This document shows, in pieces, positions 19,068 to 37,939 of a DNA stretch of 64,000 nt (position 1 is its first letter; each line of letters begins with the position of its first letter). The stretch comes from Cellvibrionaceae bacterium (GTDB lineage Bacteria; Pseudomonadota; Gammaproteobacteria; Pseudomonadales; Cellvibrionaceae): contig JAILXR010000001.1 of assembly GCA_050789445.1 (NCBI GenBank), forward strand, positions 37,009 to 101,008. Reading direction: 5' to 3'. A program made the position numbers and the translations under genes. The notes beneath the pieces are model-generated. The model ran no database searches, had not been told where the DNA came from, and was given only the letters and a program-made list of their open reading frames with translations.

Positions 19068-19080
19068 GCAGCAATATGTT

Positions 19081-19120
19081 GAGAGCAAAAGAGACGTCGG
19101 ATCATCTTTTGCTCTCCTTC
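19081..19120 (+). terminator. intra-operon hairpin/attenuator between the binding-protein gene and the permease genes
   Basis: gagagcaaaag-(14 nt loop)-cttttgctctc, a perfect 11-bp stem, followed by ttcatttattt, which is only partly T-rich. Confidence 0.4.
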
Positions 19121-19238
19121 ATTTATTTAAATAATAGAAAATATTTAAAAATAAAAAACTACGAGCTGTTAAATGAAACAGCAATGACTAAAGAAATATC
19201 AATTGAAACAATACGTAATGAAGCATGGGGTGTAGAAA

Positions 19239-20165: not shown

Positions 20166-20174
20166 GAGATCACT

Positions 20175-21317: not shown

Positions 21318-21387
21318 TTTTAATGATTTATCAATATTCGTTATAGCTACATTGATGAGATGAGCATTGTTAAAAGTAAAAAATTAA

Positions 21388-22182: not shown

Positions 22183-22269
22183 TAGCAGAAAAAATCAATA
22201 TATAACTGTAGTGACAATATTCAGCGATCGTTTAATAAGATTCGACGTTATGAAAAAGGAAACACAATT

Positions 22270-22959
22270 ATGTTAGAGCTAGCCGATTATCATGTCGCTT
22301 ATGGTCAAAGTGAAGTGATAAATAATATGAATCTAACGCTAAGGCCTAAAGAAATAATTGCAATTTTAGGGCGCAATGGGATGGGTAAAACAACGTTGAT
22401 GAAATCGTTAATTGGCATGATTCCATCGAAGCAGGGTAGCGTTAAATTAGAAGATAAAGAATTAGCCGGATTAAAAAGTCATCAGCGAGTTGCAGCGGGT
22501 GTGGGTTTTGTTCCTCAGGGAAGAATGATTTTTTCAACTATGACAGTGAAAGAAAATATTGAAACGGGTTTAACCACTACCAAAGCGAAAAAAGTCCCAG
22601 AGGACCTTTACAGCTTATTTCCAGTGTTATTAGAAATGAGAAATAGAAGAGGGGGTAATTTATCGGGTGGCCAACAACAACAGCTGGCAATAGCAAGAGC
22701 ATTAGCTAGTGATCCAAAAGTGCTTTTGTTGGATGAGCCAACTGAGGGGATTCAGCCATCAATTATTAAAGAGATGGCTAAAACACTGAAAGAAATTCGT
22801 GATCAAAGAGACCTGTCGATTATTGTTTCAGAACAGGTGCTTAGTTTTGCTTTGGATATCGCAGATCGAATTATCGTTATTGAAAAAGGCAAAATTGTTC
22901 ACGATGAAGCTCGAGAAAATGTCGACGAGAAAAAAGTTTCATCATATTTGTCCGTTTAA
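22270..22959 (+). CDS. urtE: urea/amide ABC transporter ATP-binding protein (UrtE/LivF-like)
   Basis: Walker A GRNGMGKTT, signature LSGGQQQQLAIARAL, Walker B LLLDEPTEGI. Confidence 0.8.
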   Translation: MLELADYHVAYGQSEVINNMNLTLRPKEIIAILGRNGMGKTTLMKSLIGMIPSKQGSVKLEDKELAGLKSHQRVAAGVGFVPQGRMIFSTMTVKENIETGLTTTKAKKVPEDLYSLFPVLLEMRNRRGGNLSGGQQQQLAIARALASDPKVLLLDEPTEGIQPSIIKEMAKTLKEIRDQRDLSIIVSEQVLSFALDIADRIIVIEKGKIVHDEARENVDEKKVSSYLSV

Positions 22960-22989
22960 CTTTATTACATCTTTATTGGAGAAATCACT

Positions 22990-24222
22990 ATGGCAGAAAC
23001 AATTATTAAAATTGACCTAAAAAAATCAGCCTACGAACACGACAATATTCACAATAGGTGGCATCCGGATATCCCGATGGTTTCTACGGTTAAGCCGGGT
23101 GATGATTTTATTATTGAATGTATGGATTGGACTGGCGGACAAATAAAAGATAATGATGATGCATCCGATGTAAGGGATGTGGATTTGTCGCAAGTACATT
23201 TCTTATCCGGACCTGTAGGTGTTGAAGGCGCCGAACCTGGAGACCTTCTCGTCGTTGACATCCTGGATATTGGTACTTTTAAAGAAAGTGAGTGGGGATT
23301 TAACGGCTTTTTCTCAAAACAAAATGGTGGCGGTTTTCTGACTGAACATTTTCCAGAAGCACAAAAAACAATTTGGGATTTTAACGGCATGTTTACTAAA
23401 TCTCGTCATGTTCCTGGTGTTGAATTTGCTGGATTAATACATCCGGGATTGATTGGTTGCTTACCCTCAAAAGAAATGTTGGAAGAGTGGAATAAAAGAG
23501 AAAAAGAATTGTTTGATACTGAACCTGATCGTGTACCGGGTTTAGCGAATCTACCTGATGCGTCTACGGCACATATGGGAAGAATGAAAGGTGATGCAAA
23601 AAAAGAAGCCGCAGCAGAAGGCGCTAGAACAGTTCCACCAAGAGAGCACGGCGGTAACTGTGATATTAAAGATTTGTCACGTGGTTCTAAAGTATATTTC
23701 CCAGTTTATGTGGAAGGCGGGGGCCTATCCGTAGGTGATTTGCATTTCAGCCAAGGTGATGGAGAAATTACATTCTGTGGTGCAATCGAAATGGCAGGTT
23801 GGATTCACCTTCGTGTTGAATTGATTAAAGATGGTATGTCGAAATACGCCATTAAAAATCCAATCTTTAAGCCAAGTCCTATCACACCACGTTACGATGA
23901 CTATTTAATTTTTGAAGGTATCTCAGTTGATGAACAAGGTAAGCAACATTATCTTGATGTTAATGTTGCGTATCGGCAAGCATGTTTGAATGCGATTGAA
24001 TACCTGAAAAAATTTGGCTATTCCGGAGCGCAAGCATACTCGCTACTAGGAACCGCACCTGTCCAAGGACACATTAGTGGTGTTGTTGACGTCCCTAACT
24101 CTTGTGCAACGCTTTGGTTGCCAACAGATATATTTGAGTTTGATGTTAAACCGAACGCTGATGGTCCAACAAAATACTTAGACGGAAGTGTTGAAGTTCC
24201 TTTGGCTCCGGATCTTAAGTAG
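22990..24222 (+). CDS. fmdA: formamidase / acetamidase (FmdA_AmdA family)
   Basis: 410 aa. The N-terminus reads ...HNRWHPDIPMV...PGD and the sequence resembles acetamidase/formamidase throughout. It lies immediately downstream of the amide ABC transporter and upstream of an FmdB-type zinc-ribbon gene, as in described fmd clusters. Confidence 0.8.
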   Translation: MAETIIKIDLKKSAYEHDNIHNRWHPDIPMVSTVKPGDDFIIECMDWTGGQIKDNDDASDVRDVDLSQVHFLSGPVGVEGAEPGDLLVVDILDIGTFKESEWGFNGFFSKQNGGGFLTEHFPEAQKTIWDFNGMFTKSRHVPGVEFAGLIHPGLIGCLPSKEMLEEWNKREKELFDTEPDRVPGLANLPDASTAHMGRMKGDAKKEAAAEGARTVPPREHGGNCDIKDLSRGSKVYFPVYVEGGGLSVGDLHFSQGDGEITFCGAIEMAGWIHLRVELIKDGMSKYAIKNPIFKPSPITPRYDDYLIFEGISVDEQGKQHYLDVNVAYRQACLNAIEYLKKFGYSGAQAYSLLGTAPVQGHISGVVDVPNSCATLWLPTDIFEFDVKPNADGPTKYLDGSVEVPLAPDLK

Positions 24223-24379
24223 AGAACACAATAAATCAGTTTTAAAGTTTCGAGCTTAAATCTTTACTACTGAGCAATAGAATATTATGGGAGCGTGATT
24301 CATTAAATTTCCCCCGAGATTATGTTTCACGTTTCTATAATTTTAATAATCGAATTTATAAAACGAATGGAGAATTGTA

Positions 24380-24733
24380 ATGCCAGTGTATGATTATAAA
24401 TGTAGTGATCACGGCATATTTCATGAGTTGGCCTCGATTGCTGATCATTCAAAGCCTGCTGAATGTCCGAGTTGCAAAAAACTATCGGCGAGAGTCATCA
24501 TGTTTGCACCAAATGTTATGAAAATGGCACCTGAGAAAAAAGATGCCATTGAGCGAAATGAAGTAGCTAAGCATGAACCTCAACATTCAACAGCTGATAC
24601 TCGTGCAGAAAATGCTGAAAAACTCAAACATGGTTGCGGATGTGAACACAAAAAGAAACCATCAAAGCTGATGTATACAGCAGAGGGAAATAAGATGTTC
24701 CCTACAGCAAGACCTTGGATGATTAGTCATTAA
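24380..24733 (+). CDS. fmdB: FmdB-family putative regulatory zinc-ribbon protein
   Basis: 117 aa. The N-terminus MPVYDYKCSDHGIFHE...CPSCK is the characteristic FmdB Zn-ribbon. It is adjacent to fmdA. Confidence 0.7.
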   Translation: MPVYDYKCSDHGIFHELASIADHSKPAECPSCKKLSARVIMFAPNVMKMAPEKKDAIERNEVAKHEPQHSTADTRAENAEKLKHGCGCEHKKKPSKLMYTAEGNKMFPTARPWMISH

Positions 24734-25013: not shown

Positions 25014-25553
25014 TTAGTGTGTTTTAAGAAGTATAAATTGTTTTATGTGTTGTTTTTCGGGATGTTTTTCTAACCATATATAAAATTCTTCGACTTTAGA
25101 AAAGTCTTTTTCTCCTAGAATTTTTTCATATCGTGATTTTTCTATATTCCATTGACGCTGTTTTCTTAAGCCCTTTTGCCAAACCTCTGTTGTGATCTGA
25201 GCAAGCTGAGTGTGTATTCCTAGATTTTTGAGTAACCTCCACTCTCCTTTGTCTAACCAGACATCATCACAATTGGAACAAAGATCTAATTTGTTTTTTT
25301 GATCCAGGCCGATTCGATATTTAAGCATAATACGGCTACATTTAGAGCAAATAATGACTTTGTTAGAATCATCGCTCTCTATCGGTAAATTATTAATGTG
25401 AGGGGAAGTTTTAAGGTCTAAATTGGACGACCAAAACCTGAAGCTAAAAAGTGAAATTAAATTACCATGACAGCTTGAGCATTCTGCAGCGACTAACCCA
25501 GTTTCTAGTTCGGTTGCTTTTAATGTTGGCTCATTACATTTAGGACAGTTCAT
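25014..25553 (-). CDS. double zinc-ribbon protein (two zf-TFIIB-like CxxC...CxxC modules)
   Basis: 179 aa. Module 1 is CPKCN...CSSCHG. Module 2 is CSKCS...CSNCDDVWLDKGEW, which matches the bacterial CxxC-x-G-x-WLD-x-GEL zinc-ribbon pattern. Its start lies 19 nt after the giant gene's stop. Confidence 0.55.
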   Translation of the reverse strand: MNCPKCNEPTLKATELETGLVAAECSSCHGNLISLFSFRFWSSNLDLKTSPHINNLPIESDDSNKVIICSKCSRIMLKYRIGLDQKNKLDLCSNCDDVWLDKGEWRLLKNLGIHTQLAQITTEVWQKGLRKQRQWNIEKSRYEKILGEKDFSKVEEFYIWLEKHPEKQHIKQFILLKTH

Positions 25554-25571: not shown

Positions 25572-28500
25572 TTAAGATTCTTTTGGTGTTTTGAGACTTT
25601 TTTTTCGTGCAGTTGGTTTCGTAGATCTAGTCTTGTTAGAATTTTTTTTGTTATTCAGTCTAAGCTCATGTAATTGCTCAGAGACATCCTGCATTTTATC
25701 GTGAGTACGCAAATCAATTTCGAATTTTTTATCCATTGTGCGAATTAAAGGAAAAATACTGTTTTCCATCGTTTCTGCTAGTGCTTTTAATAGCTTATCA
25801 ATTCCCGGTACTGGCTGATTGATCACTTCGACCTTACTTTGATTACTTTGTAATATTTTGTTTATTGAATTGAGTGTTTGTTCTGTGATTACTAGCTCTT
25901 GATTGGCTTTTTCAATGTCGTTAGATTTTCTAGTGCTAGAAGCTACTGTTTTTTCAACACTTGCATTTAATAACTTAATGCCATCAACAAGATCAACTAA
26001 TTGCGAAACAACTCTAGTTCCTGTGTTTTGATCATCGCCTCCAATAGATTTGTTTCGGATGAAATCTTTTTTGATTTGCTCCCAGCGAATGGTTTGCTCT
26101 TTTGTCATTGTCCCTCTAAGTTCAGAAAGCTTTAACAGGTTATCTTCGGTTCCCGTTGTCAATAATTGCGCCTCTCCTAGATAGTGATCGTTAATCATCT
26201 GCTGCATTTCACTATCATTCATTACAGCATTAACTTTCTCAGCCATTTTATTCATATTTCGATAACTACCTTGTAGCTTGAATGTAGGCTCAGTCCTGTA
26301 CTTATCGTTTTGTGCTGCTGACGCAATGTATTGACGATTAATCTTTAAAATAACGTCTTGTATGACAAATAGTTTTTTGAGAACTGTTGTGATTTCATTG
26401 AGCTCAGCACCACTATATTGGTGCTGTAAATCAGTTGTGGGAATATTATTGCCTTTGGCAATTTTTACTAGTTTATAAAAATCATCCATGCTTCGAGTGG
26501 CGAGCGGGGCTAAGACTTTGTTAGAAGTTAGTGCGTTCTCAATATAACTGAGAGCGAATTGCTCATCCATTCCTCCAAGTACATCACCGAGGTTATAAAT
26601 ATCTGCTCGGTTTGCGAGCATGTCAGGTATTTTAAATAGCTCACCTGATTCGGTGTATGGATTACCCGCCATGACGACGCAGAATTTCCTACCCCTCATG
26701 TCATAGGTTTTTGTTTCTCCTTTCCAGACGCCTTCTATTCGACGCGTGCCATCACAAAGAGAAATAAACTTTTGCAAAAACTCTGGGTGAGTATGTTGTA
26801 TGTCATCTAGATATAGCATGACGTTATTACCCATCTCTAAAGCAAGGTTTAATTTTTCAAGCTCTTGCCGTGCCGTTGCGTTTGGTGCTTGCTCTGGATC
26901 GAGTGATAACACATCGTGTCCAAGCGACGGGCAATTGATTTTCATAAAAATCAAACCCAAACGACTTGCGACATATTCCATAAGTGTGGTTTTACCGTAC
27001 CCCGGCGGGGATATCATCATTAGCAGACCCATGAGATCTGTTCTTTTGTTTTCGCCAAGAGTCCCCATTTGTTTTGCAAGGTTGTCGCCAATAATCGGTA
27101 AATAGGAGTCATTAATTAACTGATTACGTACAAATGAACTCAGAGGTCTTGCTTTAAAAGATTCAAGTTTTAATTGTTGTTTTTCTTTTTGAGTTATTTC
27201 ATGACGTAAGTTTAAATATCTTTTGTACGCGGGTATGACTTCAAATTTATGCTTGTTCAGTTTCAATAAAAATGCATCAAGAGCGAAAGATAATTGTCGA
27301 TTCGTTATTAATGGATGATCCCCCATTAATCCCTCGACCGTTAGCTCTAAATCTACTTCTGTGTTTCTCCGGTCTAATCGCTCTTCGCTATTAATGAGCG
27401 CAATTGCCTCAGGGATATAGCGTTTTAACTTGGATAAGTTTTTCTCTTCTACCAAGGCATTGAGCCAAGCTGAGGTGAGCTTCCAGCGCTCAGCGGGCCA
27501 ACCAATCATTTCCTCAAGTGATCGTTGATACCTCTTCCATGTTTGATCGTCCATTGATTGTCGAAGTTCTTCGGTTAATCGAACAGCGTATTTACTAACA
27601 ATGAACTCAGTGCGATCTCTACTGAGTTCGGCAACTAAGTATTCTGATGCTGAGCGAATCTCAAGTGCAGATACAGTAATTGGATTTGATGAAATGAATG
27701 AAGAAATTGCTTGCTCAATCTCTTTTGCTAGTAACTGCTTTGCATCTGCGCTGGCAAAAACAGATTCCATCTGTCCAGCTGATTCAGCGCGAGTGGGCCA
27801 AGTTTTATAGGATAAAATATTTTTATTAGCTTCTTTTGGGGTATGGCTTTGATGAAATTCTTTTTTAATATTAGCCCAGAATATTTGGGCGATAGCGCGG
27901 CTCATGGGGTTGAAATACAAGAGGTCTGCACTATCCAGTGCCGGAATTAATTTTTGTAAAATAAGGACTGAATCATGATCATGAATACCTTTTTCATAGC
28001 CTTCTTTATATCTTGGAGTCGCAAAGTCTTTAGCTATGTTATTAAGCTCGGTACTATCTAATAGCGCATGCTTGAGGATATCAGCGTTTAATCCATGTTG
28101 ATGATTTTGTGCCGCCTGTAGAATTGAAAAAGCTAAATATTCCGAGCGGTAAACATTTTCAGTTTCAGACTCTAACGAAAGATTCCAGTATGGCTGCAAT
28201 TTATTAAGCTCGTCATTATCGATAACTTCAAAAAAATCTGTTCCGGTTAAGTGGGCACTTAGTTTTCCATTTCTTGGTATTAATGTTAAATCGAGCTCTT
28301 GGGTATTCACAGAAAATTTATGATTAGGCCCCAGTTTAATGACGTTACCACCGTCCTCAAAGATATCTGTTTTATCACGCAGTGCACGAAGTGCCTGCTC
28401 TTTTGCGGCTTTAAACTGCGACTCTATATCGTCAGCTTTGACTGAGCTGTTTAATTCTCGTAATTGTTCAACGAGGTCTCGTACTTTTAAAACCAGAGCG

Positions 28501-30932
28501 TCAGAGGCAAAGTAAGTGTTGAGTGTGTCAGGATCAGTGAATTTAAGAGATCTTTTTTCAATACTTTTTACTATTCGACTAGCGGCATCTTCCACATTTT
28601 GCGCTTTACGTTGTTGTTCATCTAGAAGTTGCTGTTTGTGAGATTCGAACGATTCATATATCTCCTCACGTTTATCCATGATGTCTGAAAGAAATTGATC
28701 GAAATCACTAAATTGGCTTTCTAACTCTTCTAGTTGAATTAATAATCGAGATAACTGTTCATCACAACGGTCAGGGGTTGTAGATAGGCCGAGGGCGTTT
28801 GTAATTGTTTGTGAGAATAATTTAAATTGTGCACCAAATTGCGCAATCGCTTCTTCTGATCCTAAACTTTTTTGCTTTATTTTAGCTTCGGCTTTACTTT
28901 GATTTAATTTTGAATACACATGAGATATAGAATCGATGATGCGGGTACGAACAGTTGCATCATCGACTTTTAGTGTGCTCATTAATTCAGATAAAAGGTC
29001 TAGTCCGGCAGCTGAAGACTCAATCGCCTCAATTAAAGGGAGCAATTCTGCATTGGAGTGACTTGCCTCTACATCGTTATTTAATAAATTAATTTTTTCT
29101 AAGTATGGATCAAGTGCATTTTCTGAGGATAAAAAAATCACAGTCTTTTGGCTTAGCTCTTCTTCCTCTTTAATTAATTGTTCTTCTAATTGCTTAATGC
29201 GATTTAAATTAATGTAACGATAATCTTTTATTGTCGTAAGGTGACCTCGTTGCCGTCTAATTCGGCTGAGAGTATCAACGTATTCTTCAGCCGTCTCGTC
29301 ATTGCTGATACGTATTGCTCGAATAATAGCGTCTTGTTCATCCTCGGTTTCTGCCATCGTTTTTGCAGATTGTTGTTTGATGCTTTCGACTTTTTCAAAT
29401 TCATCGATTACGAGTTCTGCAGTCACCGCAATGCTTTTCAGCGAGTCGCTTATAGGCGAAGCTTCTTTTTCTTCTAGCCAATAATAGGCATCAAATAATT
29501 TTTGCGGGCTTTGGCTTAATTCTTCATACAATCGAACAGAAACGGATTGATTATCTATCGCTCGACAAATACTAAAAATATCCGACACACCACGCACTAA
29601 CTCTGCGTTACCAATACGCCCAAAAAATGTTTGGCTGCTAGGCGCCTTGCTTGCAAATTCATCGCTTACATAAGGCGTCTGCCAAAGTTGCATTGGATGA
29701 ACTCGTGTCGGCTCATTCTCTGCGGAAAATATAACAATGTTTCCTTCGTCAGATAGGGCATAACCATGCCCTAGAATTGGATTTTGTAAGGATTTATTTA
29801 TAAGGTTGTAGGCGAGTAGGGCGACAACACCATCGACTGGCTCATAAAAAACATAAAGTACATCTTCGCCATTGGGTGAGCGGATCGCTCGTTTAAAGCG
29901 GAGTCCAACCGTATTTGTTTCAAACGTTTTATGTTCGCCAGTTTGTAGGTAGTATCCATCAGGAAAGATAATTCCGTGATCTTCTGGTAGTTGAATACAG
30001 GATTGACCGATAGCATCGATGCGTAATATATCTTTTGTAAATGGGTTGTAAATTAGATGGCGCCAAACATCTTCTCTGTAAGGCAATATTTTAAGTAATA
30101 TCAATTCGCCGACAGACGCGTATTGAACCTCAACATCATCCAGTGATTGAGTTGAATCTTCTACTGGCTCTCTATAAATACCCAAGCCGTCTTCCGTGTT
30201 GTTTTCGATTTTTATGGTAAGATCGCCCGCCAAAGTTTCAACAAAGACGGTATCTAAAATATTAATGTGTGCATGACGACCATGAACAATATCGTCTCGT
30301 TTACATGTATGCCATTCAAAATCGTAGGAGGGTGGTAACTGGATATCGCGTTCACCACGATTATCGATATACTTTTCAACAGAGCCATCAGCCGACAGCG
30401 ACCACCTAAAGACGCGAATGTCTTCCGGCCTTTCTCCAATTTGAAAACCTGCGAGTAACTTGCCATGGTTGATGGTAAGTTCGACTAAGCGAGTGTGTTT
30501 GTAATATCTATAGAGCTCTTCAAAATCATTAGTAAAACTTTGATCAGATAAAAAAGTATTTTGAATCGCAGCGGGTTCCATTTCAATATCATCACCACTT
30601 TGATCAAGTGTAAAAAGCGCAAAGACATCATTGATCTTTGTTTCTTTTTTTAATCCGATGAAAACATTAAAACCAAAGAGCAGGTAGGGTCCTACTTGAA
30701 CGATGTCTCTGGCGATACAATTGTTTTCTGTTCTTACTCGAACACGTGCTTCGACGCTCATGTCTGAGCTACCGAACTCTGCTAGCCGTCCTTCATTTAA
30801 TTCGTTGACCAGTGATTTAAGTTGCTTACCTTGTTTGATTAAGCGTTTACTTATGATCTCGTATGCACCGCCTTCTTCAACGGCATTATCCACTATATTA
30901 TTGGCGTCAGATGACTTTTCCTGTTGTGTCAT
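25572..30932 (-). CDS. 1,786-aa protein with a single AAA+ (AAA_5/MoxR-dynein-like) ATPase core; the N-terminal, coiled-coil and C-terminal regions are unassigned
   Basis: One uninterrupted ORF. The P-loop is ISPPGYGKTTLMEY (encoded at about 26988-27017). Walker B is VMLYLDDIQH. The sensor-1-like motif is CVVMAGNPYTESGELFKIPDMLANRADIY. The ~700 aa before the ATPase are heptad-rich/helical (many E/L/K/Q runs) and the first ~450 aa appear mixed/beta. I recognise no named family. Confidence 0.8.
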   Translation of the reverse strand: MTQQEKSSDANNIVDNAVEEGGAYEIISKRLIKQGKQLKSLVNELNEGRLAEFGSSDMSVEARVRVRTENNCIARDIVQVGPYLLFGFNVFIGLKKETKINDVFALFTLDQSGDDIEMEPAAIQNTFLSDQSFTNDFEELYRYYKHTRLVELTINHGKLLAGFQIGERPEDIRVFRWSLSADGSVEKYIDNRGERDIQLPPSYDFEWHTCKRDDIVHGRHAHINILDTVFVETLAGDLTIKIENNTEDGLGIYREPVEDSTQSLDDVEVQYASVGELILLKILPYREDVWRHLIYNPFTKDILRIDAIGQSCIQLPEDHGIIFPDGYYLQTGEHKTFETNTVGLRFKRAIRSPNGEDVLYVFYEPVDGVVALLAYNLINKSLQNPILGHGYALSDEGNIVIFSAENEPTRVHPMQLWQTPYVSDEFASKAPSSQTFFGRIGNAELVRGVSDIFSICRAIDNQSVSVRLYEELSQSPQKLFDAYYWLEEKEASPISDSLKSIAVTAELVIDEFEKVESIKQQSAKTMAETEDEQDAIIRAIRISNDETAEEYVDTLSRIRRQRGHLTTIKDYRYINLNRIKQLEEQLIKEEEELSQKTVIFLSSENALDPYLEKINLLNNDVEASHSNAELLPLIEAIESSAAGLDLLSELMSTLKVDDATVRTRIIDSISHVYSKLNQSKAEAKIKQKSLGSEEAIAQFGAQFKLFSQTITNALGLSTTPDRCDEQLSRLLIQLEELESQFSDFDQFLSDIMDKREEIYESFESHKQQLLDEQQRKAQNVEDAASRIVKSIEKRSLKFTDPDTLNTYFASDALVLKVRDLVEQLRELNSSVKADDIESQFKAAKEQALRALRDKTDIFEDGGNVIKLGPNHKFSVNTQELDLTLIPRNGKLSAHLTGTDFFEVIDNDELNKLQPYWNLSLESETENVYRSEYLAFSILQAAQNHQHGLNADILKHALLDSTELNNIAKDFATPRYKEGYEKGIHDHDSVLILQKLIPALDSADLLYFNPMSRAIAQIFWANIKKEFHQSHTPKEANKNILSYKTWPTRAESAGQMESVFASADAKQLLAKEIEQAISSFISSNPITVSALEIRSASEYLVAELSRDRTEFIVSKYAVRLTEELRQSMDDQTWKRYQRSLEEMIGWPAERWKLTSAWLNALVEEKNLSKLKRYIPEAIALINSEERLDRRNTEVDLELTVEGLMGDHPLITNRQLSFALDAFLLKLNKHKFEVIPAYKRYLNLRHEITQKEKQQLKLESFKARPLSSFVRNQLINDSYLPIIGDNLAKQMGTLGENKRTDLMGLLMMISPPGYGKTTLMEYVASRLGLIFMKINCPSLGHDVLSLDPEQAPNATARQELEKLNLALEMGNNVMLYLDDIQHTHPEFLQKFISLCDGTRRIEGVWKGETKTYDMRGRKFCVVMAGNPYTESGELFKIPDMLANRADIYNLGDVLGGMDEQFALSYIENALTSNKVLAPLATRSMDDFYKLVKIAKGNNIPTTDLQHQYSGAELNEITTVLKKLFVIQDVILKINRQYIASAAQNDKYRTEPTFKLQGSYRNMNKMAEKVNAVMNDSEMQQMINDHYLGEAQLLTTGTEDNLLKLSELRGTMTKEQTIRWEQIKKDFIRNKSIGGDDQNTGTRVVSQLVDLVDGIKLLNASVEKTVASSTRKSNDIEKANQELVITEQTLNSINKILQSNQSKVEVINQPVPGIDKLLKALAETMENSIFPLIRTMDKKFEIDLRTHDKMQDVSEQLHELRLNNKKNSNKTRSTKPTARKKSLKTPKES

Positions 30933-31016
30933 TGTCTTTGTCCTTCCAGCAAATGAAGAGAATAAATGTGGGGTGAGGAGATGTAGATAACCTCACTCCG
31001 TATTTATTGAGATTGG

Positions 31017-32984
31017 CTATTCTTTATCAGCCGCTTCTTTGCTTTTTGTACCGGACGAAGTACCGCTAGGTGTTTGAGTCACTTTGTTGACTAAAGCCGC
31101 AACAGTACTACTTTTATCCGCTAACCCATCAATCGCTTTACCGATAGAAAGTGATTTGGCGAAATTATTGAAGAAGTGATCTTCACCGCCGACGATATCG
31201 ATCTTCGCTCGTTGCAATGCGGTCGCAAGGACTTCTGCGTTTTCTTTCGCGATATCTTTTCCTGCTTCAATCGAAGCTAGTACTTCTTTCAGTGCAGTTT
31301 CTAAGCCCATTCGATATTCTTCATGCGCTCTTGCATCGTCACTCATCGTACCCATCGCTTCGAATTTATCCATCAAGCCATCCGCTTCTGCTTTAAATTG
31401 TTCGCGAGTCACTTCCGCTCCAGACATGCCAATTTCTTTGTTAGCTTTTGCTTCAGAGCTACCTTTAGCTGCAATAACATCAGCTTCAGATGTTCCAACT
31501 GAGCGGTGAGCTGCGGCTTCTGCATCGCCTTTAGCTTGTATGACGTGCGCTTCCGCAACACCTTCCTTCTCTAGTGCATCTGCTTTAGCTTCTTGTACCT
31601 TCGCATCAGCAAGCCCTGGTGCAGCACGTTCAGCTTGCACACCTTCAGAAAGCTTTTTCATTGCATCAGCTTCTTTCGCAGTAGCTTCCAATTTAGCTTG
31701 TGCAATTGTCGTTATTTCTACTGCTTTATGCTGAGCCGATAACTCTTCAGCTTCAGCAGCTTTGACTAATTTAACTTTATCTTCTTCGGCGATTGCTTCA
31801 GCCGAAAGGACTTGTACTTGTTTCAGTCGATCCGCTTCTGAGACTTCTCGTACCTCTTTGATTTTTTCTTCTTCGATAGCAACTGTTTTGTCGACAGCGA
31901 CACGCTCTCTGATAACGTTTGCGATTTCTTTCTTCTCAACTTCGACGGCTTTTTCAGCCTCGATTCTTTGTAGTTCTACCTCTCTTTCGCGAGAAACAAT
32001 CTCTAGATCCTTGGCTCTAGTAACTTTTTCGATTTCGATGACAACTGCACGCTGTCTATTTTGCTCTGCAACTTCTATTTCTCTTTTTTGGTTTTCTGTT
32101 TGTACAGCAAGATCTTGTTCTACAAAAATCGTTGTAGACTCAGCCTTTTTTCGTTCTTCTTCCTGCACTTTAATTGTTTCGGCTTCTTCTCTGGCTTGAA
32201 TTGTAGCGACTTCTCTTGCCTGACGAGCTTCAGCATCTTTCTGTTGTCGTTCCAGTTCGAGCATAGCCTCAACGGTTTCGACATTCTTCTTTTTGATGGC
32301 AAGCTCTTCATCTTTCTCAAGTATATTTGTACGAACATTTTGAGTTGCTGTTAATTCGGTAATCTTTTTAATACCTTCAGAGTCCAAAATATTGCTTGGG
32401 TCTAATGATACTTTTGGTGTTTGTTCTAGGTAATCGATTGCAACGTCTTCAAGAACATAACCATTTAGATCATTGCCGATGACCTCAATAATTTTATCTC
32501 TAAATTCTTGTCTGTTTTCAAAGAGCTGAACAAATTCTATTTGCTTGCCAACTGTTTTTAATGCCTCAGAAAATTTTGCATTAAAAAGATCATTGACTGC
32601 GTCTCGATCAGAAGCTCGGCTGGCACCTAAAGATTTTGCAACTTTGAGAACATCTTCAGGTGTTTCATTAACTCTTAAATAAAAGGCAACTGTGATGTCT
32701 GCTCTCATATTATCTTGGCAGATCAACCCATCTTTACCTCTTCGGTCAACCTCCATTGTGATCAGAGAAATTCGCATTAATTCCTTTTTATGTATAACAG
32801 GGATGATCCAGGAACCTGTGAAAAATACTTTTGGTCTTGAACTTAAATCATTTTTAATTAAAGCAACGCCTTGCTCGACTTTGACATAAAAGGCTTTGAA
32901 TAAGGCAGCCATAACGACTAAAAAAAGAAAAAAACCACCAACAAAAACCAGCAACCCCATGAAACTAGGTAAATACTCAGACAT
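31017..32984 (-). CDS. flotillin / SPFH (band-7) domain protein, YqiK-like, with a long E/A/K-rich coiled-coil tail
   Basis: 655 aa. An N-terminal TM helix is followed by an SPFH domain (VEQGVALIKNDLSS...MRISLITMEVD...GLICQDNMRADITVAFYLRV). The coiled coil is extensive (EAEKAVEVEKKEIANVIRERVAVDKT...). It is paired with an upstream YqiJ/NfeD-like gene. Confidence 0.85.
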   Translation of the reverse strand: MSEYLPSFMGLLVFVGGFFLFLVVMAALFKAFYVKVEQGVALIKNDLSSRPKVFFTGSWIIPVIHKKELMRISLITMEVDRRGKDGLICQDNMRADITVAFYLRVNETPEDVLKVAKSLGASRASDRDAVNDLFNAKFSEALKTVGKQIEFVQLFENRQEFRDKIIEVIGNDLNGYVLEDVAIDYLEQTPKVSLDPSNILDSEGIKKITELTATQNVRTNILEKDEELAIKKKNVETVEAMLELERQQKDAEARQAREVATIQAREEAETIKVQEEERKKAESTTIFVEQDLAVQTENQKREIEVAEQNRQRAVVIEIEKVTRAKDLEIVSREREVELQRIEAEKAVEVEKKEIANVIRERVAVDKTVAIEEEKIKEVREVSEADRLKQVQVLSAEAIAEEDKVKLVKAAEAEELSAQHKAVEITTIAQAKLEATAKEADAMKKLSEGVQAERAAPGLADAKVQEAKADALEKEGVAEAHVIQAKGDAEAAAHRSVGTSEADVIAAKGSSEAKANKEIGMSGAEVTREQFKAEADGLMDKFEAMGTMSDDARAHEEYRMGLETALKEVLASIEAGKDIAKENAEVLATALQRAKIDIVGGEDHFFNNFAKSLSIGKAIDGLADKSSTVAALVNKVTQTPSGTSSGTKSKEAADKE

Positions 32985-33001: not shown

Positions 33002-33691
33002 TTATATTTTGTTTTCAAATTCCGACGCTGAAACGACACGATATACATGTTCGTTCTCGATATATTCGAGAAGTGCTACCCGATCACCCCGATTAAACAC
33101 CTCTCCCTCGTAAGACCTAACTTTGACAATAAGTCCTGCACCACCATCTTCAATAGTGGCCTCACCAAATTGCTGGTCTACGCGTGTTGTCCTGACCACT
33201 GCAATTTGCCCAACTATGTTTCTCTCTACCTGCTGATTTGCAGATTTAAAAATAGGTCTTAATGGTTTGACGATGAGAGATGTGACAATCGCCGAAAGAT
33301 ATAGGGATCCAATAAAGATAGGTATCCCTGCTAAGAATTGAATTACCCCATCAGGAATAAATGGAAAAATAAAATGTACTGCGTAATAACAAATAAACCA
33401 ACCAATTAGGGACATCAATGAAACGAGAACCGGGATTGGTATTCCATTAAGGCCTAATCTAACTAATAATCCTGCTAGCACATTTAGATTTGAGAGGGAG
33501 TCTCCTGCATCAACATCTAAATCGGCTTCAGGGATGTCAAAGTTTAGAAAATCCATGTCTGCTAGTCCTAATACTGCTAAACATCCATACAAAAAGCAGA
33601 GTATTAAGAAAAAGGAAAAAATAACGGTTGGAAACGATGTAATGTTTAGATAAAACGGATCCATCGCTTCCGTTAAAAAAATGGCAAACAT
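33002..33691 (-). CDS. NfeD-like inner-membrane protein (YqiJ-like; flotillin partner with a C-terminal OB-fold)
   Basis: 229 aa. TM helices are followed by a C-terminal beta-rich segment (GQIAVVRTTRVDQQFGEATIEDGGAGLIVKVRSYEGEVFNRGDRVALLEY) typical of NfeD/YuaF OB-fold domains. It sits immediately upstream of the flotillin, as in the yqiJK arrangement. Confidence 0.7.
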   Translation of the reverse strand: MFAIFLTEAMDPFYLNITSFPTVIFSFFLILCFLYGCLAVLGLADMDFLNFDIPEADLDVDAGDSLSNLNVLAGLLVRLGLNGIPIPVLVSLMSLIGWFICYYAVHFIFPFIPDGVIQFLAGIPIFIGSLYLSAIVTSLIVKPLRPIFKSANQQVERNIVGQIAVVRTTRVDQQFGEATIEDGGAGLIVKVRSYEGEVFNRGDRVALLEYIENEHVYRVVSASEFENKI

Positions 33692-33737: not shown

Positions 33738-34433
33738 TTATTTTTCTGCCCGACTTTTTTTAATTCTTTCTAGTACATCGCTAGCTTTGTGCGTACTTGA
33801 TGTTATACCTGCTTCTTCAAGTTTGTTTTTTAAAGAACTATCGACGTTTTCTTCAGAAAGTTCATTGGCGACTTTCATCTGAGCATCTTTTAGAGTTTGT
33901 TTTTCTTTAAGCCGCTCTAGTGAATCCATTGCTGTTCTCAGTTTCGAGTTGGTTCCGCTATGTCTTTCGGCGACAGCTGCTTGTGCCCGCTGAACATTTT
34001 CTGTCGCTTTAACAGTGTCAACTTGTTGCTTAAGTCGCTTTATTGTTAATTCAGTTTGCCTAATGGTCTCGCGCAGTTTATTTACGTTTTCAGTAAAGCC
34101 ATCACGCAATTTTTTCTCATCATCTAACTGGTTTTCAAGATCTGCAATTTTAGTGGCGACCTCTAGGGCTAAAGCCTCATTGTCAGCCTCTAACGCTTTG
34201 ACAGCATATCCTTCATGTTCTTGGATTGCGGACTCAATTTTTTTAACTTTTTCTTCCGAAAGCTTTTGTCGAGCCATAATTGTGGCCAGTCCATCTTTTG
34301 ACTGTTTTAGTTCTTCACCAGCGTCTCGAACTTCTTGATCTAAAATTCGTAAAGCTTGTGTGTCGACGATAGCTTCACCAGCTTCATTTACACCACCTTT
34401 TAACGCGGTTATCATTTTTGCCCATACGTTCAT
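33738..34433 (-). CDS. PspA/IM30 (Vipp1, ESCRT-III-like) family protein, YjfJ-like
   Basis: 231 aa, all helical coiled-coil. The N-terminus MNVWAKMITALKGGVNEAGEAIVDTQALRILDQEVRDAGEEL and its length match the PspA/IM30 family. No pspBC or pspF neighbours are present. Confidence 0.8.
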   Translation of the reverse strand: MNVWAKMITALKGGVNEAGEAIVDTQALRILDQEVRDAGEELKQSKDGLATIMARQKLSEEKVKKIESAIQEHEGYAVKALEADNEALALEVATKIADLENQLDDEKKLRDGFTENVNKLRETIRQTELTIKRLKQQVDTVKATENVQRAQAAVAERHSGTNSKLRTAMDSLERLKEKQTLKDAQMKVANELSEENVDSSLKNKLEEAGITSSTHKASDVLERIKKSRAEK

Positions 34434-34443
34434 GTTTGTTCTC

Positions 34444-35070
34444 CTAAGCTTCTATTGCTATGTTAAGAAACTCGCTATATGCCTCTGTCGCTTGTATGAC
34501 ATTACTCGCTAAAGTTTCGATTTCGAAAATCACATTTGAAAGTGTCGATATGGAGCTAAGTGCGCCGAACATGTGATAGTAATCCTGTCCGTCTCCAATT
34601 GTGTCTAAGCTTATCGTTGAGAGAGGGAAATACTTATGTGTTCTCAGTATTGCTTTATTAAATCGATCAACGTCATTGACGGCAGTGACAGGCCATAAAA
34701 CAGATTCCGCAATTATCTGCTCACCAGAAACTGTCAAAAAAACTGGGAGGTCTCCATACTCGTGCATCATTATATGCAAAGCTGGTTCTACGCCGTCTAT
34801 AAGTTCGGCGGAAGACTGCCCGCTTTGGAGTAGATCTGACTCTAGGAGTTCTTTGTAAAGAGTTTCAGTCGTCCAAGCTTTATCGTTGCTAATCATACTT
34901 GCTCCTTTGTTTATTGTAAGGCCCCCGCGGGCTGTTCGAAGTTCTTTTTCCATAATGCTTAACGTTTTTGAGTTTTCAGGAAGAATCCATACCTCTTTTT
35001 TAATAAGGCCTTGTTCGCGAAGACGCTTTCGAAATTCTCTTTGGTAGTGTGCTGATGACTTTGGTTTCAT
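34444..35070 (-). CDS. hypothetical protein, first gene of the operon (basic N-terminus; possibly YjfI/DUF2170-like)
   Basis: 208 aa. It lies 10 nt upstream of the PspA-family gene. The N-terminus is basic (KSSAHYQREFRKRLREQGLIKK) and could be an RHH/DNA-binding segment. In E. coli the PspA paralogue yjfJ follows yjfI. Homology is not verifiable from sequence alone. Confidence 0.3.
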   Translation of the reverse strand: MKPKSSAHYQREFRKRLREQGLIKKEVWILPENSKTLSIMEKELRTARGGLTINKGASMISNDKAWTTETLYKELLESDLLQSGQSSAELIDGVEPALHIMMHEYGDLPVFLTVSGEQIIAESVLWPVTAVNDVDRFNKAILRTHKYFPLSTISLDTIGDGQDYYHMFGALSSISTLSNVIFEIETLASNVIQATEAYSEFLNIAIEA

Positions 35071-35087
35071 GGTGGAATAATCTAACT

Positions 35088-35121
35088 TGTTACATGTGAG
35101 ATGTCAATATGTTACATGTGA
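35088..35121 (-). promoter_or_regulatory. candidate operator: two direct copies of TGTTACATGTGA (core palindrome ACATGT) spaced 22 bp apart, 18-53 bp upstream of the operon's first start codon
   Basis: Copies at 35088-35099 and 35110-35121. Exact 12/12 repeat. The spacing is about two helical turns. It lies in the divergent intergenic region 35071-35407. Confidence 0.3.
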
Positions 35122-35407
35122 TGCTCCGGATTAGTTTATTGCAGTCGTATCTGATTGTTATAATTGATTTTTTTAGCTTTTCTCCGTTATTGTCGTGTTT
35201 TTTTGAGGTGGTTTGAGGAGTTTGGCGCCATTAATTTGCGCATGTTTGGGGTTGTTGACTGCATTTTGTTTCTTGGTCGCAATTATGCTGCAGGAATTCG
35301 AGCTTATCAGCGAATAGCCTTATGCTGTTATTGGCTGAGTAGAGCGGGTACTATGTCGACCGCATTTTATGAAGCATTAATTTTGTGACGAGTAGAAATC
35401 AATAGTT

Positions 35408-37923: not shown

Positions 37924-37939
37924 GTGTAAGGAAGGATCC

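What the first reader, a model, noticed from the sequence alone, without database searches (positions are those of the whole stretch)
25572..30932. Unclassifiable 1,786-aa protein: N-terminal globular region, ~700-aa coiled coil, one AAA_5-like ATPase module, and a ~350-aa C-terminal domain
Features read directly from the translation:
- a P-loop PPGYGKTT (nt ~26988-27017);
- a Walker B motif LYLDDIQH;
- a sensor-1-like VVMAGNP followed by ...ANRADIYNLGDV, which is MoxR/McrB/dynein-type rather than the Vps4/classic clade;
- upstream of these, long heptad-like stretches rich in E/L/K/Q;
- an N-terminal ~450 aa with no motif I can assign.
The MoxR/RavA/McrB proteins I know are far shorter, and this protein has only a single AAA module. 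The size and architecture are what make it unusual. No VWA/MIDAS partner gene is nearby.
Basis: seen in the sequence. Interest (0 to 1): 0.75.

Follow-up and report, generated by a model that had tools for sequence, protein, structure and literature searches.

The report
Flotillin-linked giant AAA+ ATPase, BacE family
The 1,786-residue protein is real and intact, but it is an ordinary member of an already catalogued, widespread bacterial family (misleadingly named "DNA repair ATPase"; BacE in Pseudomonas aeruginosa) whose gene always sits just after a flotillin-like membrane-scaffold gene, and whose biochemical job is still untested.

Summary

It is not unclassifiable:
- Pfam places it in DUF3686 (aa 38-484, E=3e-201), DUF7902 and AAA_5.
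- More than 5,000 collinear homologues of 1,600-1,900 aa exist, from Gammaproteobacteria to Streptomyces (44% identity). NCBI names them "DNA repair ATPase".
- It is the orthologue (56% identity) of P. aeruginosa BacE (PA3728/PA14_16190).
- Ravi et al. 2024 already described this operon type.

Corrected anatomy:
- N-terminal helix plus a beta-propeller-like domain.
- About 370 aa of helical/coiled-coil sequence, not about 700.
- A confidently modelled ~380-aa all-alpha domain with no structural match.
- One MoxR-like AAA+ module with near-invariant catalytic motifs.
- C-terminal helices and a Lys-rich tail.

The gene follows a flotillin/SPFH gene in 77/80 loci and in two further distant loci (one Streptomyces). 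An NfeD-like YqiJ gene is present in 73/80. A BacA-PspA pair is present in 53/80.

Most likely role, inferred only: an ATP-driven assembler or remodeller of the flotillin (and PspA) membrane scaffold. The SMC/Rad50-type DNA-repair reading and known defence systems are not supported.

Side finding: paired TTACATGTAA-type operators precede bacA homologues, and these carry an overlooked repressor-like N-terminal extension.

The parts
25572..30932 (-). Complete ORF, 1,786 aa: BacE-family giant AAA+ ATPase (NCBI name 'DNA repair ATPase')
   Evidence: intact ORF. (100% identical deposited protein; more than 5,000 homologues). (Pfam DUF3686 + DUF7902 + AAA_5).
29481..30821 (-). aa 38-484: DUF3686 domain. 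An N-terminal long helix (aa 23-53) is followed by a beta-rich, beta-propeller-like domain (aa 59-418) and capping helices.
28359..29480 (-). aa 485-858: Pro/Gly-poor helical/coiled-coil region. It includes DUF7902 (aa 605-688, nt 28869-29120).
   Evidence: heptad analysis, strongest at aa 700-800. DUF7902, E=5e-26. This region was not modelled in 3D.
27153..28295 (-). aa 880-1260: all-alpha middle domain preceded by a small beta element. No Pfam family and no structural match.
26013..27050 (-). aa 1295-1640: single AAA+ module (alpha/beta core plus helical lid), MoxR/AAA_5-like
   Evidence: AAA_5 in 17/17 members; beta-hairpin at aa 1398-1411 before the sensor-1 strand. NorQ and CbbQ are the top hits.
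26985..27008 (-). Walker A, PPGYGKTT (aa 1309-1316)
   Evidence: Invariant.
26793..26819 (-). Walker B, MLYLDDIQH (aa 1372-1380). It reads Asp-Asp rather than the usual Asp-Glu.
   Evidence: DDIQH is at least 97% conserved.
26658..26678 (-). Sensor-1 strand, VVMAGNP (aa 1419-1425; Asn1424)
   Evidence: GNPYTE is at least 97% conserved.
26583..26627 (-). Box VII-like PDMLANRADIYNLGD (aa 1436-1450). Arg1442 is the candidate arginine finger.
   Evidence: P, D, M, L, N and R at least 97% conserved. The assignment as arginine finger is an inference from MoxR/RuvB-type motifs.
26253..26279 (-). Sensor-2-like KLQGSYRNM (aa 1552-1560; Arg1558)
   Evidence: LQGSYRN at least 97% conserved. The assignment is an inference from the G-S/T-x-R sensor-2 motifs of RuvB/MoxR.
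25575..26027 (-). aa 1636-1786: variable linker, two long helices, and a Lys/Arg-rich tail (10 basic residues in the last 27)
   Evidence: helices, low to moderate confidence. (tail). (this part diverges in the Xanthomonadales clade).
31017..32984 (-). Flotillin-like SPFH/Band-7 protein (BacD-type): N-terminal TM segment + Band_7 + long coiled coil. Encoded immediately upstream of the ATPase gene.
   Evidence: Band_7, E=3.9e-9, when the coiled-coil tail is removed; present upstream in 77/80 loci; 49% identical to the Streptomyces partner.
33002..33691 (-). YqiJ-like (NfeD-type) membrane protein (BacC-type)
   Evidence: weak YqiJ_N hit, E=0.019; conserved in 73/80 loci.
33738..34433 (-). PspA/IM30 family protein (BacB / YjfJ type)
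   Evidence: E=1.5e-44; present in 53/80 loci.
34444..35070 (-). BacA homologue: a conserved ~50-aa basic N-terminal extension plus the DUF2170 (YjfI, CesT-like) domain
   Evidence: NCBIfam BacA, E=2.6e-93. DUF2170. N-terminal extension; 24/25 sequences hit plasmid repressor protein F; the crystal structure 8q8o lacks this extension.
25014..25553 (-). Double zinc-ribbon protein, 179 aa, 18 nt downstream of the ATPase gene. A facultative operon member.
   Evidence: Zn_ribbon_TFIIB, two stretches; a homologue lies near the ATPase gene in 21/80 loci.
35088..35121 (-). Two exact copies of TCACATGTAACA (35110-35121 and 35088-35099) flanking a TTGACA/TAGATT promoter-like site. Candidate operator of the operon.
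   Evidence: a conserved pair in 48/53 loci that have bacA; at least two copies in 47/52 loci with bacA against 0/21 without.

Best explanation
**What it is (shown).** This is the Cellvibrionaceae orthologue of BacE (PA3728/PA14_16190). It is the large cytoplasmic ATPase subunit of a conserved membrane-associated module. The core of that module is a BacD-type flotillin/SPFH protein with an NfeD-like YqiJ membrane protein. In most Gammaproteobacteria a PspA (ESCRT-III-superfamily) protein and its BacA partner/regulator are added.

**How it most likely works (inferred).**
1. The single MoxR-like AAA+ module oligomerises, probably as a hexamer.
2. This places several N-terminal arms (beta-propeller, coiled coil, all-alpha domain) around the ring.
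3. The arms bind the coiled-coil assemblies of the flotillin, and where present PspA, at the inner face of the cytoplasmic membrane.
4. ATP binding and hydrolysis then assemble, disassemble or remodel that scaffold during envelope stress.
5. In function this would parallel Vps4 acting on ESCRT-III, or MoxR ATPases remodelling their target complexes. Here the target-binding adaptor is fused to the ATPase rather than supplied by a VWA partner.
6. The Asp-Asp Walker B may mean slow, switch-like hydrolysis. This last point is speculative.
For: **Family membership**
- Full-length Pfam DUF3686 + DUF7902 + AAA_5.
- More than 5,000 collinear homologues.
- 56% identity over residues 1-1757 to the P. 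paraeruginosa bacE-position gene.
- 44% identity over 1,643 aa to a Streptomyces member.

**Likely active ATPase**
- Walker A, Walker B, sensor 1, box VII Arg and the sensor-2-like motif are at least 97% conserved in 68 diverse representatives.

**MoxR-like AAA+**
- Pfam AAA_5 in 17/17 members, a beta-hairpin before the sensor-1 strand, and NorQ/CbbQ as top structural matches.

**Linkage to flotillin**
- A flotillin gene lies directly upstream in 77/80 loci. The other three loci are cut by a contig end.
- The same adjacency holds in Streptomyces and in a divergent metagenomic lineage. There the flotillin partner is 49-50% identical to the window's.
- YqiJ is present in 73/80 loci and BacA + PspA in 53/80.
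- In the window the six genes are separated by only 10-84 nt (coordinates).

**Published**
- bacABCDEF is co-transcribed in P. aeruginosa PA14.
- BacB to BacF rise 6- to 13-fold in a bacA mutant; BacE rises 8.9-fold (PMC10948618).
- The operon type and the ATPase architecture were noted, with a proposed role in sub-membrane assembly (PMC11237479).
Against: - No experiment shows ATPase activity, oligomeric state, membrane association or any physical contact between BacE and flotillin or PspA. The mechanism rests on gene linkage and domain analogy.
- The AAA+ core is only moderately confident in the model (pLDDT 64-85; residues 1425-1455 are below 50; pTM 0.47).
- No canonical aromatic pore loop is visible in the sequence, so a threading mechanism of the Vps4 or ClpB kind is doubtful.
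- 27/80 loci lack PspA, so PspA cannot be the universal substrate.
- The propeller assignment is weak (Z no higher than 8.9; residues 212-265 are unmodelled).
Confidence: 0.55

Rival explanations
1. It is what the database name says: a DNA-repair or chromosome-partitioning ATPase of the SMC/Rad50 kind. A long coiled coil would connect ATPase heads that act on DNA.
For: NCBI and JGI names are 'DNA repair ATPase' and 'ATPase involved in DNA repair', and Pfam describes DUF3686 the same way. There is a long helical/coiled region. PseudoCAP-style wording appears in PMC8855297.
Against: - There is no ABC-type head. The protein has no N-terminal Walker A and no LSGG signature, and only one P-loop, at aa 1309-1316 inside an AAA+ fold.
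- No SMC_N, AAA_23 or Rad50 Pfam hit was found.
- No DNA-binding domain was found.
- The neighbours are membrane proteins (flotillin, NfeD-like, PspA), not repair genes.
- The name has no experimental basis in the literature searched.
Confidence: 0.03
2. It is part of an anti-phage or abortive-infection system. The giant ATPase would sense infection and trigger a PLD-family effector (BacF) or the zinc-ribbon protein, with PspA and flotillin protecting or permeabilising the membrane.
For: Large multidomain ATPases paired with PLD/HKD proteins are common in defence islands (background knowledge). A PLD-like gene follows the ATPase gene in 29/80 loci. Accessory genes vary: PLD, zinc-ribbon protein, BacA-PspA.
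Against: - None of the six operon proteins gave a specific PADLOC hit. Only PspA gave weak hits, all to SMC-like coiled-coil defence proteins (LmuB, PbeC, JetC, DndD).
- The flotillin-ATPase pair keeps 44-49% identity from Gammaproteobacteria to Streptomyces. Identity falls stepwise with taxonomic distance. This pattern fits a housekeeping or stress module more than a mobile defence island.
- The window lacks the PLD gene.
- The flanking genes are a formamidase/ABC-transporter cluster and an ABC-2 exporter, not defence genes.
- The P. aeruginosa phenotypes concern biofilm, swarming, rhamnolipids and osmotic stress (PMC2587700, PMC10948618).
Confidence: 0.08
3. It is a MoxR-type maturation chaperone for one specific client, such as a membrane enzyme or metallo-complex, as NorQ, CbbQ and RavA are. 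The flotillin would only be the platform where the client is assembled. BacE would not act on the flotillin or PspA polymers themselves.
For: The AAA+ module is MoxR-like. SPFH scaffolds are known to corral other machines, for example HflK/C with FtsH (background knowledge). The propeller could be a client-binding adaptor.
Against: No candidate client gene is conserved next to the pair. The only invariant neighbour is the flotillin, followed by the NfeD-like protein. No VWA/MIDAS adaptor is present.
Confidence: 0.2
4. It is mainly a structural tether or scaffold. Its coiled coil and propeller would build a sub-membrane lattice with flotillin. The AAA+ domain would serve only as a nucleotide-gated oligomerisation switch and do no mechanical work.
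For: The Walker B is Asp-Asp rather than Asp-Glu and this is conserved. No aromatic pore loop is recognisable (direct reading). About 1,250 of the 1,786 residues lie outside the ATPase module.
Against: Sensor 1, the candidate arginine finger and the sensor-2-like motif are all near-invariant. That is expected if hydrolysis itself is under selection, not only nucleotide binding.
Confidence: 0.12

Closest known systems
P. aeruginosa BacE (PA3728 / PA14_16190), fifth gene of the bacABCDEF 'biofilm-associated cluster'
   Same: - Full-length collinear orthologue: 56% identity over residues 1-1757 to the P. paraeruginosa copy.
- Same gene order: bacA - pspA(bacB) - yqiJ-like(bacC) - flotillin(bacD) - ATPase.
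- The same paired operator lies upstream of bacA.
   Different: In Pseudomonas the next gene is a PLD/HKD-family protein, BacF. The window has no PLD and a double zinc-ribbon protein sits in that position instead. No sigma-54-like site is found upstream in the window, whereas one was proposed for PA14 (PMC10948618).
MoxR-family AAA+ ATPases (NorQ, CbbQ, RavA; Pfam AAA_5)
   Same: - Best Pfam coverage of the ATPase core (AAA_5 positions 2-127 of 139).
- A beta-hairpin before sensor 1.
- An 'L-x-N-R' box VII and 'G-S-x-R' sensor-2-like motifs.
   Different: - It is 4-6 times larger, with about 1,290 residues N-terminal to the ATPase module.
- It has no VWA/MIDAS partner.
- Its Walker B is DD, not DE.
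- Sequence similarity to any solved MoxR protein is insignificant.
Vps4 acting on ESCRT-III polymers (PspA belongs to the ESCRT-III superfamily)
   Same: An AAA+ ATPase encoded together with an ESCRT-III-superfamily protein (PspA) in 53/80 loci. Ravi et al. 2024 proposed the analogy for PspA-linked ATPases in general.
   Different: - It is not a classic-clade AAA: PF00004 covers only the Walker A to Walker B stretch.
- It has no MIT domain.
- The invariant partner is the flotillin, not PspA.
HflK/C-FtsH and other pairings of an SPFH scaffold with an AAA+ machine
   Same: An SPFH/Band-7 membrane scaffold genetically coupled to an AAA+ ATPase. An NfeD-like partner is also present.
   Different: BacE has no protease domain and no transmembrane segment. 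It is MoxR-like rather than FtsH-like, and it carries a propeller and a coiled coil.
SMC/Rad50-type 'DNA repair ATPases' (the source of the database name)
   Same: Only the presence of a long helical/coiled-coil region.
   Different: No ABC-type head, no signature motif, and a single AAA+ P-loop near the C-terminus.

Membership tests
DUF3686/DUF7902 'DNA repair ATPase' family (BacE family) | N-terminal DUF3686 domain matched over its full length | tested here: met
   E=3.4e-201, profile positions 2-448 of 448, 669 bits against a cut-off of 25.
DUF3686/DUF7902 'DNA repair ATPase' family (BacE family) | DUF7902 within the helical region | tested here: met
   E=5e-26, positions 1-84 of 85, above the cut-off.
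DUF3686/DUF7902 'DNA repair ATPase' family (BacE family) | Single C-terminal AAA+ module with conserved PPGYGKTT / DDIQH / GNPYTE / PDMLxNR / GSYRN motifs | tested here: met
   68 of 69 long representatives carry the module.
DUF3686/DUF7902 'DNA repair ATPase' family (BacE family) | Collinear full-length similarity to named members, including the Pseudomonas bacE-position gene | tested here: met
   98-100% coverage at 51-100% identity; 44% identity over 1,643 aa to a Streptomyces member.
DUF3686/DUF7902 'DNA repair ATPase' family (BacE family) | Gene lies immediately downstream of a BacD-type flotillin/SPFH gene | tested here: met
   77/80 loci, and the window itself; also true in Streptomyces and a divergent lineage.
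MoxR / AAA_5 (clade 7) AAA+ ATPases | Pfam AAA_5 match above the curated cut-off | tested here: met
   24.8-26.2 bits against a cut-off of 22; 17/17 members match. The match is weak but consistent.
MoxR / AAA_5 (clade 7) AAA+ ATPases | Pre-sensor-1 beta-hairpin | tested here: met
   strands at model residues 539-544 and 547-552 (aa 1398-1411) directly precede the sensor-1 strand. Local pLDDT is about 64-81.
MoxR / AAA_5 (clade 7) AAA+ ATPases | Helix-2 insert and pre-sensor-2 insert | tested here: inconclusive
   no hairpin is predicted between beta2 and alpha2. An extra long helix (aa 1508-1541) precedes the sensor-2 helix, which is consistent with a pre-sensor-2 insert. Only secondary structure was available, not the coordinates.
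MoxR / AAA_5 (clade 7) AAA+ ATPases | Closest structural neighbours are MoxR proteins | tested here: inconclusive
   [not shown]
MoxR / AAA_5 (clade 7) AAA+ ATPases | Partner protein with a VWA/MIDAS domain encoded nearby; compact size of about 300-500 aa | tested here: not met
   no VWA protein in the neighbourhood. The protein is 1,786 aa.
SMC/Rad50-type DNA-repair ATPases | ABC-type head: N-terminal Walker A, C-terminal signature motif and Walker B, and Pfam SMC_N/AAA_23 | tested here: not met
   no N-terminal P-loop and no LSGG; no SMC_N or AAA_23 hit.
Vps4-type classic-clade AAA (ESCRT-III disassembly) | MIT domain plus a classic AAA cassette with the second region of homology | tested here: not met
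   no MIT domain. PF00004 aligns only to positions 2-72 of 131.
Known anti-phage defence systems (PADLOC-DB v2) | Match of the ATPase or its neighbours to a defence-system model | tested here: not met
   no hit for the ATPase, flotillin, YqiJ-like protein, BacA or the zinc-ribbon protein. PspA alone gives weak hits, all to SMC-like coiled-coil defence proteins.

The most novel reading that the evidence does not exclude
BacE could be the missing energy source for bacterial flotillin and PspA (ESCRT-III-like) membrane scaffolds. In this reading a MoxR-derived hexameric motor uses fused propeller and coiled-coil arms to grip the coiled-coil cage of a BacD-type flotillin. It would open, close or recycle that cage in an ATP-dependent way, making it a bacterial functional counterpart of Vps4 that is ancient (shared by Proteobacteria and Actinomycetota). 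The whole operon would be autoregulated by BacA through an overlooked repressor-like N-terminal domain that binds paired TTACATGTAA-type operators.
Probability: 0.3. Interest if true: 0.7.

Novelty: already known. Interest (0 to 1): 0.38.

Why it matters
As a finding, this window holds a routine orthologue. It shows no new architecture, no frameshift and no unusual context.

The family itself is worth a biochemist's attention for three reasons:
- It is a large, widespread ATPase with near-invariant catalytic motifs that is misnamed "DNA repair ATPase".
- It is genetically locked to a flotillin/SPFH scaffold across distant phyla and, in many bacteria, to PspA.
- How bacterial flotillin and ESCRT-III-like assemblies are built and taken apart, and whether ATP is used, is an open question. 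BacE is the obvious candidate to test.

In P. aeruginosa the operon affects biofilm formation, swarming and virulence. PA3728 is listed as recurrently mutated in cystic-fibrosis isolates (PMC8190622).

The side observation gives a directly testable regulatory model for the operon. It also suggests that the P. aeruginosa bacA start codon, and the construct that was crystallised, are about 59 residues too short.

Tried and rejected
- **PDB sequence searches.** The single sequence and a 17-sequence profile of aa 860-1786 gave only P-loop-level hits (RuvB E=0.02).
- **NCBIfam.** No model matches the ATPase.
- **PADLOC.** No hit to the ATPase.
- **Pfam on excised pieces.** aa 485-880, 880-1260 and 1461-1786 gave nothing beyond DUF7902.
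- **Literature.** No paper mentions DUF3686. Papers mentioning PA3728 or PA14_16190 list the gene without any functional work. No paper links YqiJ/YqiK to an ATPase.
- **Sigma-54 promoter upstream of the operon.** There is no TGGCAC-N5-TTGC match with up to 2 mismatches in 35071-35420. Window-wide counts equal chance.
- **Hairpin in the 84-nt flotillin-ATPase spacer, as a possible attenuator.** The fold is not significant (z = -1.6).
- **Full-length flotillin against Pfam.** No hit. This was a coiled-coil artefact, because the N-terminal 255 aa do hit Band_7.
- **PLD (BacF) homologue in the window.** None found.
- **Not attempted.** The 3D structure of the coiled-coil region aa 500-860 and any multimer prediction.
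Full report
**1. Observation**

The minus strand of 25572-30932 holds one uninterrupted ORF of 1,786 codons. An open frame of that length in DNA of about 40% G+C cannot be a chance event.

The translation is 100% identical to a deposited protein from a Cellvibrionaceae metagenome-assembled genome, seen on a contig of 3.68 Mb. The ORF is therefore neither a fusion of several genes nor a sequencing artefact.

- PPGYGKTT, aa 1309-1316, nt 26985-27008.
- MLYLDDIQH, aa 1372-1380.
- VVMAGNP, aa 1419-1425.
- PDMLANRADIYNLGD, aa 1436-1450.

There is only one P-loop and one Walker B in the whole protein.

**2. It is not unclassifiable**

Pfam matches DUF3686 ("ATPase involved in DNA repair") over its entire length at aa 38-484 (E=3.4e-201). 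It matches DUF7902 at aa 605-688 (E=5e-26). AAA, AAA_22 and AAA_5 match weakly at aa 1302-1431.

The homologue search returned more than 5,000 proteins. The best 120 are 1,595-1,828 aa long and cover 89-100% of the query (98-100% for all but one) at 65-100% identity. Where a name is given it is mostly "DNA repair ATPase".

Two further searches started from distant members. They extend the same architecture to Xanthomonadales, Longimicrobium, Myxococcota, Betaproteobacteria and many Actinomycetota (Streptomyces, Nonomuraea). The window's protein aligns collinearly with a Streptomyces member at 44% identity over 1,643 residues.

A profile of the N-terminal domain was scored against 1.84 billion cluster representatives:
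- 841 representatives matched at E<=1e-3 and 334 at E<=1e-30.
- In the long representatives (1,450-2,036 aa) the domain almost always starts within the first 50 residues.
- The shorter hits are probably fragments from short contigs.

68 of 69 long representatives also carry the AAA+ module.

**3. What the literature already says**

- Ravi et al. 2024 (PMC11237479) describe this operon class. It consists of a CesT/Tir-like YjfI protein and PspA, combined with three further genes. [quoted passage not shown] The third is a YqiJ/YuaF-type 3TM protein, sometimes joined by a PLD/HKD hydrolase. They also note shorter operons that lack PspA.
- In P. aeruginosa this is the bac ("biofilm-associated cluster") locus (PMC2587700).
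- Wallart et al. 2024 (PMC10948618) showed by RT-PCR that bacA to bacF are co-transcribed. BacB, C, D, E and F rise 6- to 13-fold in a bacA transposon mutant. BacE (PA14_16190) rises 8.9-fold.
- PA3728 is listed as recurrently mutated in cystic-fibrosis isolates (PMC8190622).
- No paper in the library reports any biochemical or genetic study of BacE itself.

**4. Gene neighbourhood**

In the window the minus-strand genes run in this order:

| Coordinates | Gene product |
|---|---|
| 34444-35070 | BacA homologue (NCBIfam BacA E=2.6e-93; DUF2170) |
| 33738-34433 | PspA/IM30 (E=1.5e-44) |
| 33002-33691 | YqiJ-like membrane protein |
| 31017-32984 | Flotillin-like protein (Band_7 E=3.9e-9 once the coiled-coil tail is removed) |
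| 25572-30932 | The ATPase |
| 25014-25553 | Double zinc-ribbon protein |

The gaps between these genes are 10, 46, 17, 84 and 18 nt. No intrinsic terminator was predicted in any of the gaps.

I fetched 80 related genomic loci and located the window's neighbours in them:
- The flotillin gene lies directly upstream of the ATPase gene in 77/80. The other three are cut by a contig end.
- The YqiJ-like gene is present in 73/80.
- BacA and PspA are present together in 53/80.
- The zinc-ribbon protein is present in 21/80.
- A PLD-like BacF homologue follows the ATPase gene in 29/80. It is absent from the window.

The flanking genes of the window are shared only with its closest relative.

In a Streptomyces chromosome and in a divergent metagenomic lineage, the gene just upstream of the ATPase gene is again a Band-7 protein. 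It is 49-50% identical to the window's flotillin. So the invariant unit is flotillin + ATPase, with the NfeD-like protein nearly always present. BacA-PspA, PLD and the zinc-ribbon protein are add-ons.

**5. Anatomy**

*Helical region.* aa 485-858 are Pro/Gly-poor and rich in E/K/Q/R/D/L. The heptad signal exceeds the shuffled control mainly at aa 700-800. This is about 370 aa, not 700.

*Middle domain.* aa ~880-1260 are modelled confidently (pLDDT 80-93) as an all-alpha domain after a small beta element. Nothing in Pfam or in the PDB fold searches matches it.

*AAA+ module.* The module covers aa ~1295-1640.
- Pfam AAA_5 is matched by 17/17 family members over model positions 2-127 of 139. PF00004 covers only the Walker A to Walker B stretch.
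- The model has the order: Walker A helix, beta2, alpha2, Walker B strand, alpha3, a beta-hairpin (aa 1398-1411), then the sensor-1 strand. This is the pre-sensor-1 hairpin arrangement.
- An extra long helix (aa 1508-1541) precedes the helix that carries GSYRN. This fits a pre-sensor-2 insert but does not prove one.
- The sequence has no significant similarity to any solved structure beyond the P-loop.
- In 68 diverse representatives, Walker A, DDIQH, GNPYTE, PDMLxNR and LQGSYRN are at least 97% conserved. This is evidence for selection on catalysis.
- The Walker B is Asp-Asp rather than Asp-Glu. From memory, DnaA has a similar "DDIQ" Walker B and is a slow, switch-like ATPase. That is a lead, not a test.
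- Read directly from the sequence, no aromatic pore-loop motif is recognisable between beta2 and alpha2.

*C-terminus.* It has a variable linker, two long helices of low to moderate confidence, and a Lys/Arg-rich tail. This part is replaced by Ala/Pro-rich sequence in the Xanthomonadales clade.

**6. Mechanism**

*Shown.*
- Family membership.
- A conserved AAA+ active site, likely catalytic.
- A MoxR-like core.
- Obligatory gene linkage to a BacD-type flotillin.
- Frequent linkage to NfeD-like, PspA and BacA genes.
- Co-transcription and co-regulation in P. aeruginosa (published).

*Inferred.*
- The AAA+ module oligomerises.
- The propeller, coiled coil and alpha domain act as fused adaptor arms that bind the coiled-coil assemblies of flotillin, and PspA where present.
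- ATP turnover assembles, disassembles or remodels that scaffold at the inner membrane under envelope stress.

Because 27/80 loci and the two distant lineages lack PspA, the flotillin is the more likely universal partner.

*Rivals.*
- The SMC/Rad50-type DNA-repair reading fails its defining tests.
- A defence-system reading has no PADLOC support. It also fits poorly with conservation that tracks taxonomy.
- A MoxR-style chaperone for some other client, or a nucleotide-gated structural tether, cannot be excluded.

**7. Side finding: operator and an overlooked BacA domain**

*The repeat in the window.* Upstream of the BacA homologue there are two exact copies of TCACATGTAACA (35110-35121 and 35088-35099). 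These are the only two matches in 64 kb, where about 0.3 are expected by chance. They flank the best sigma-70-like site of the region: TTGACA, 17 nt, TAGATT. That site ends 9 nt before the ATG, and no Shine-Dalgarno sequence is evident. This suggests a leaderless or near-leaderless mRNA.

*Conservation across loci.* The ACATGT core, mostly in a T(T/C)ACATGT(A/G)A context, occurs in two or three copies in 47 of 53 upstream regions that have a bacA homologue, and once in one more (48/53 in all). The pair usually sits at about -49 and -27 from the start codon, roughly 22 bp apart. This includes P. paraeruginosa. The background rate is 0.03 per 200 nt. At least two copies lie upstream of the ATPase gene in 47/52 loci with bacA, against 0/21 loci that have yqiJ-flotillin-ATPase but no bacA.

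*The N-terminal extension.* BacA homologues share a strongly conserved, basic N-terminal extension of about 50 aa: KSSAHYQRxFRxRLREQGLVKKEVWILPE...L..E..LR. The two homologues that lack it also lack the palindromes. 24 of 25 such extensions hit the NCBIfam model for "plasmid repression protein F" (best E=1.4e-5), and 10 of 25 hit IncL/M RepC. Both sets of hits are below the curated cut-offs.

*What was missed.* The BacA crystal structure (8q8o, 146 aa) aligns only to residues 64-203. This matches the 16-kDa annotation of PA3732. The published work mentions neither a palindrome nor DNA binding.

*My reading (inference).* BacA is an autorepressor. Its N-terminal domain binds these operators. The P. 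aeruginosa start codon is annotated about 59 codons too far downstream. This fits the rise of BacB to BacF in the bacA mutant. A regulator encoded elsewhere is not excluded.

No sigma-54-type -24/-12 match is present upstream in this window.

**8. Verdict**

The sequence observation is real, with corrected domain boundaries. The MoxR-type call is reasonable. "Unclassifiable" is wrong. The protein is an ordinary orthologue of a catalogued but biochemically unstudied family. Interest lies in the family's unresolved function and in the operator and BacA observation, not in this particular locus.

Noticed in passing
window 35088-35121 (-); also L038 5673-5708 and 47 other loci: Paired palindromic sites of the T(T/C)ACATGT(A/G)A type, about 22 bp apart, sit at roughly -49 and -27 from the bacA-homologue start and overlap a sigma-70-like promoter. 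The ACATGT core is found in 48/53 upstream regions that have bacA. At least two copies occur in 47/52 loci with bacA and in 0/21 without. This is a candidate operator for the whole operon, including the ATPase gene.
   Followed up: yes
window 34918-35070 (-), aa 1-51 of the BacA homologue: BacA homologues share a conserved basic N-terminal extension (KSSAHYQRxFRxRLREQGLVKKEVWILPE...). It weakly but consistently resembles small plasmid repressors: protein F in 24/25 sequences, IncL/M RepC in 10/25. It is missing from the crystallised 146-aa P. aeruginosa BacA (8q8o) and from the 16-kDa PA3732 annotation. That start codon is therefore probably mis-annotated.
   Followed up: partly
window 35068-35107 (-): The predicted -10 hexamer ends 9 nt before the bacA-homologue ATG, and no Shine-Dalgarno sequence is evident. 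P. paraeruginosa has the same geometry. This suggests a leaderless or near-leaderless mRNA. No sigma-54-like site was found here, although one was proposed for P. aeruginosa PA14.
   Followed up: partly
window 31017-32984 (-): The full-length flotillin-like protein gives no Pfam hit at all, probably because its long coiled coil triggers the bias filters. Its first 255 residues alone hit Band_7 above the cut-off. The precomputed Pfam labels for the Streptomyces and metagenomic partners are blank in the same way.
   Followed up: yes
window 25014-25553 (-); L005, L008, L010, L044: A double zinc-ribbon protein follows the ATPase gene. In several Cellvibrio-group loci a PLD/HKD (BacF-like) gene sits between the ATPase gene and this zinc-ribbon gene. 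The window has lost, or never had, the PLD gene.
   Followed up: partly
window 30933-31016 (-): The 84-nt spacer between the flotillin and ATPase genes can form a GGAGTGAGG/CCTCACCCC hairpin followed by a T-rich stretch. The fold is no better than shuffled controls (z = -1.6), so an attenuator is unsupported.
   Followed up: yes
[not shown]
   Followed up: partly
window 7615-12983 (+): A complete rRNA operon (16S, two tRNAs, 23S, 5S). It accounts for the G+C rise to about 0.50 at 8-12 kb.
   Followed up: no
window 17802-24733 (+): A branched-chain-type ABC transporter (binding protein, two permeases, two ATPases) is followed by a formamidase/acetamidase and a small Zn_ribbon_8 protein. This looks like an amide or urea uptake and hydrolysis cluster. 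A hybrid histidine kinase lies at 13974-17372 (-).
   Followed up: no
window 51538-53684 (+): A cluster of five tRNA genes.
   Followed up: no
window 35408-41231: An ABC-2-type exporter pair is transcribed divergently from the operon. It is followed by a ketoacyl-synthase-like gene and a BtrH_N/DUF4872 protein. Except in the closest relative, these genes are not found at the related loci.
   Followed up: no
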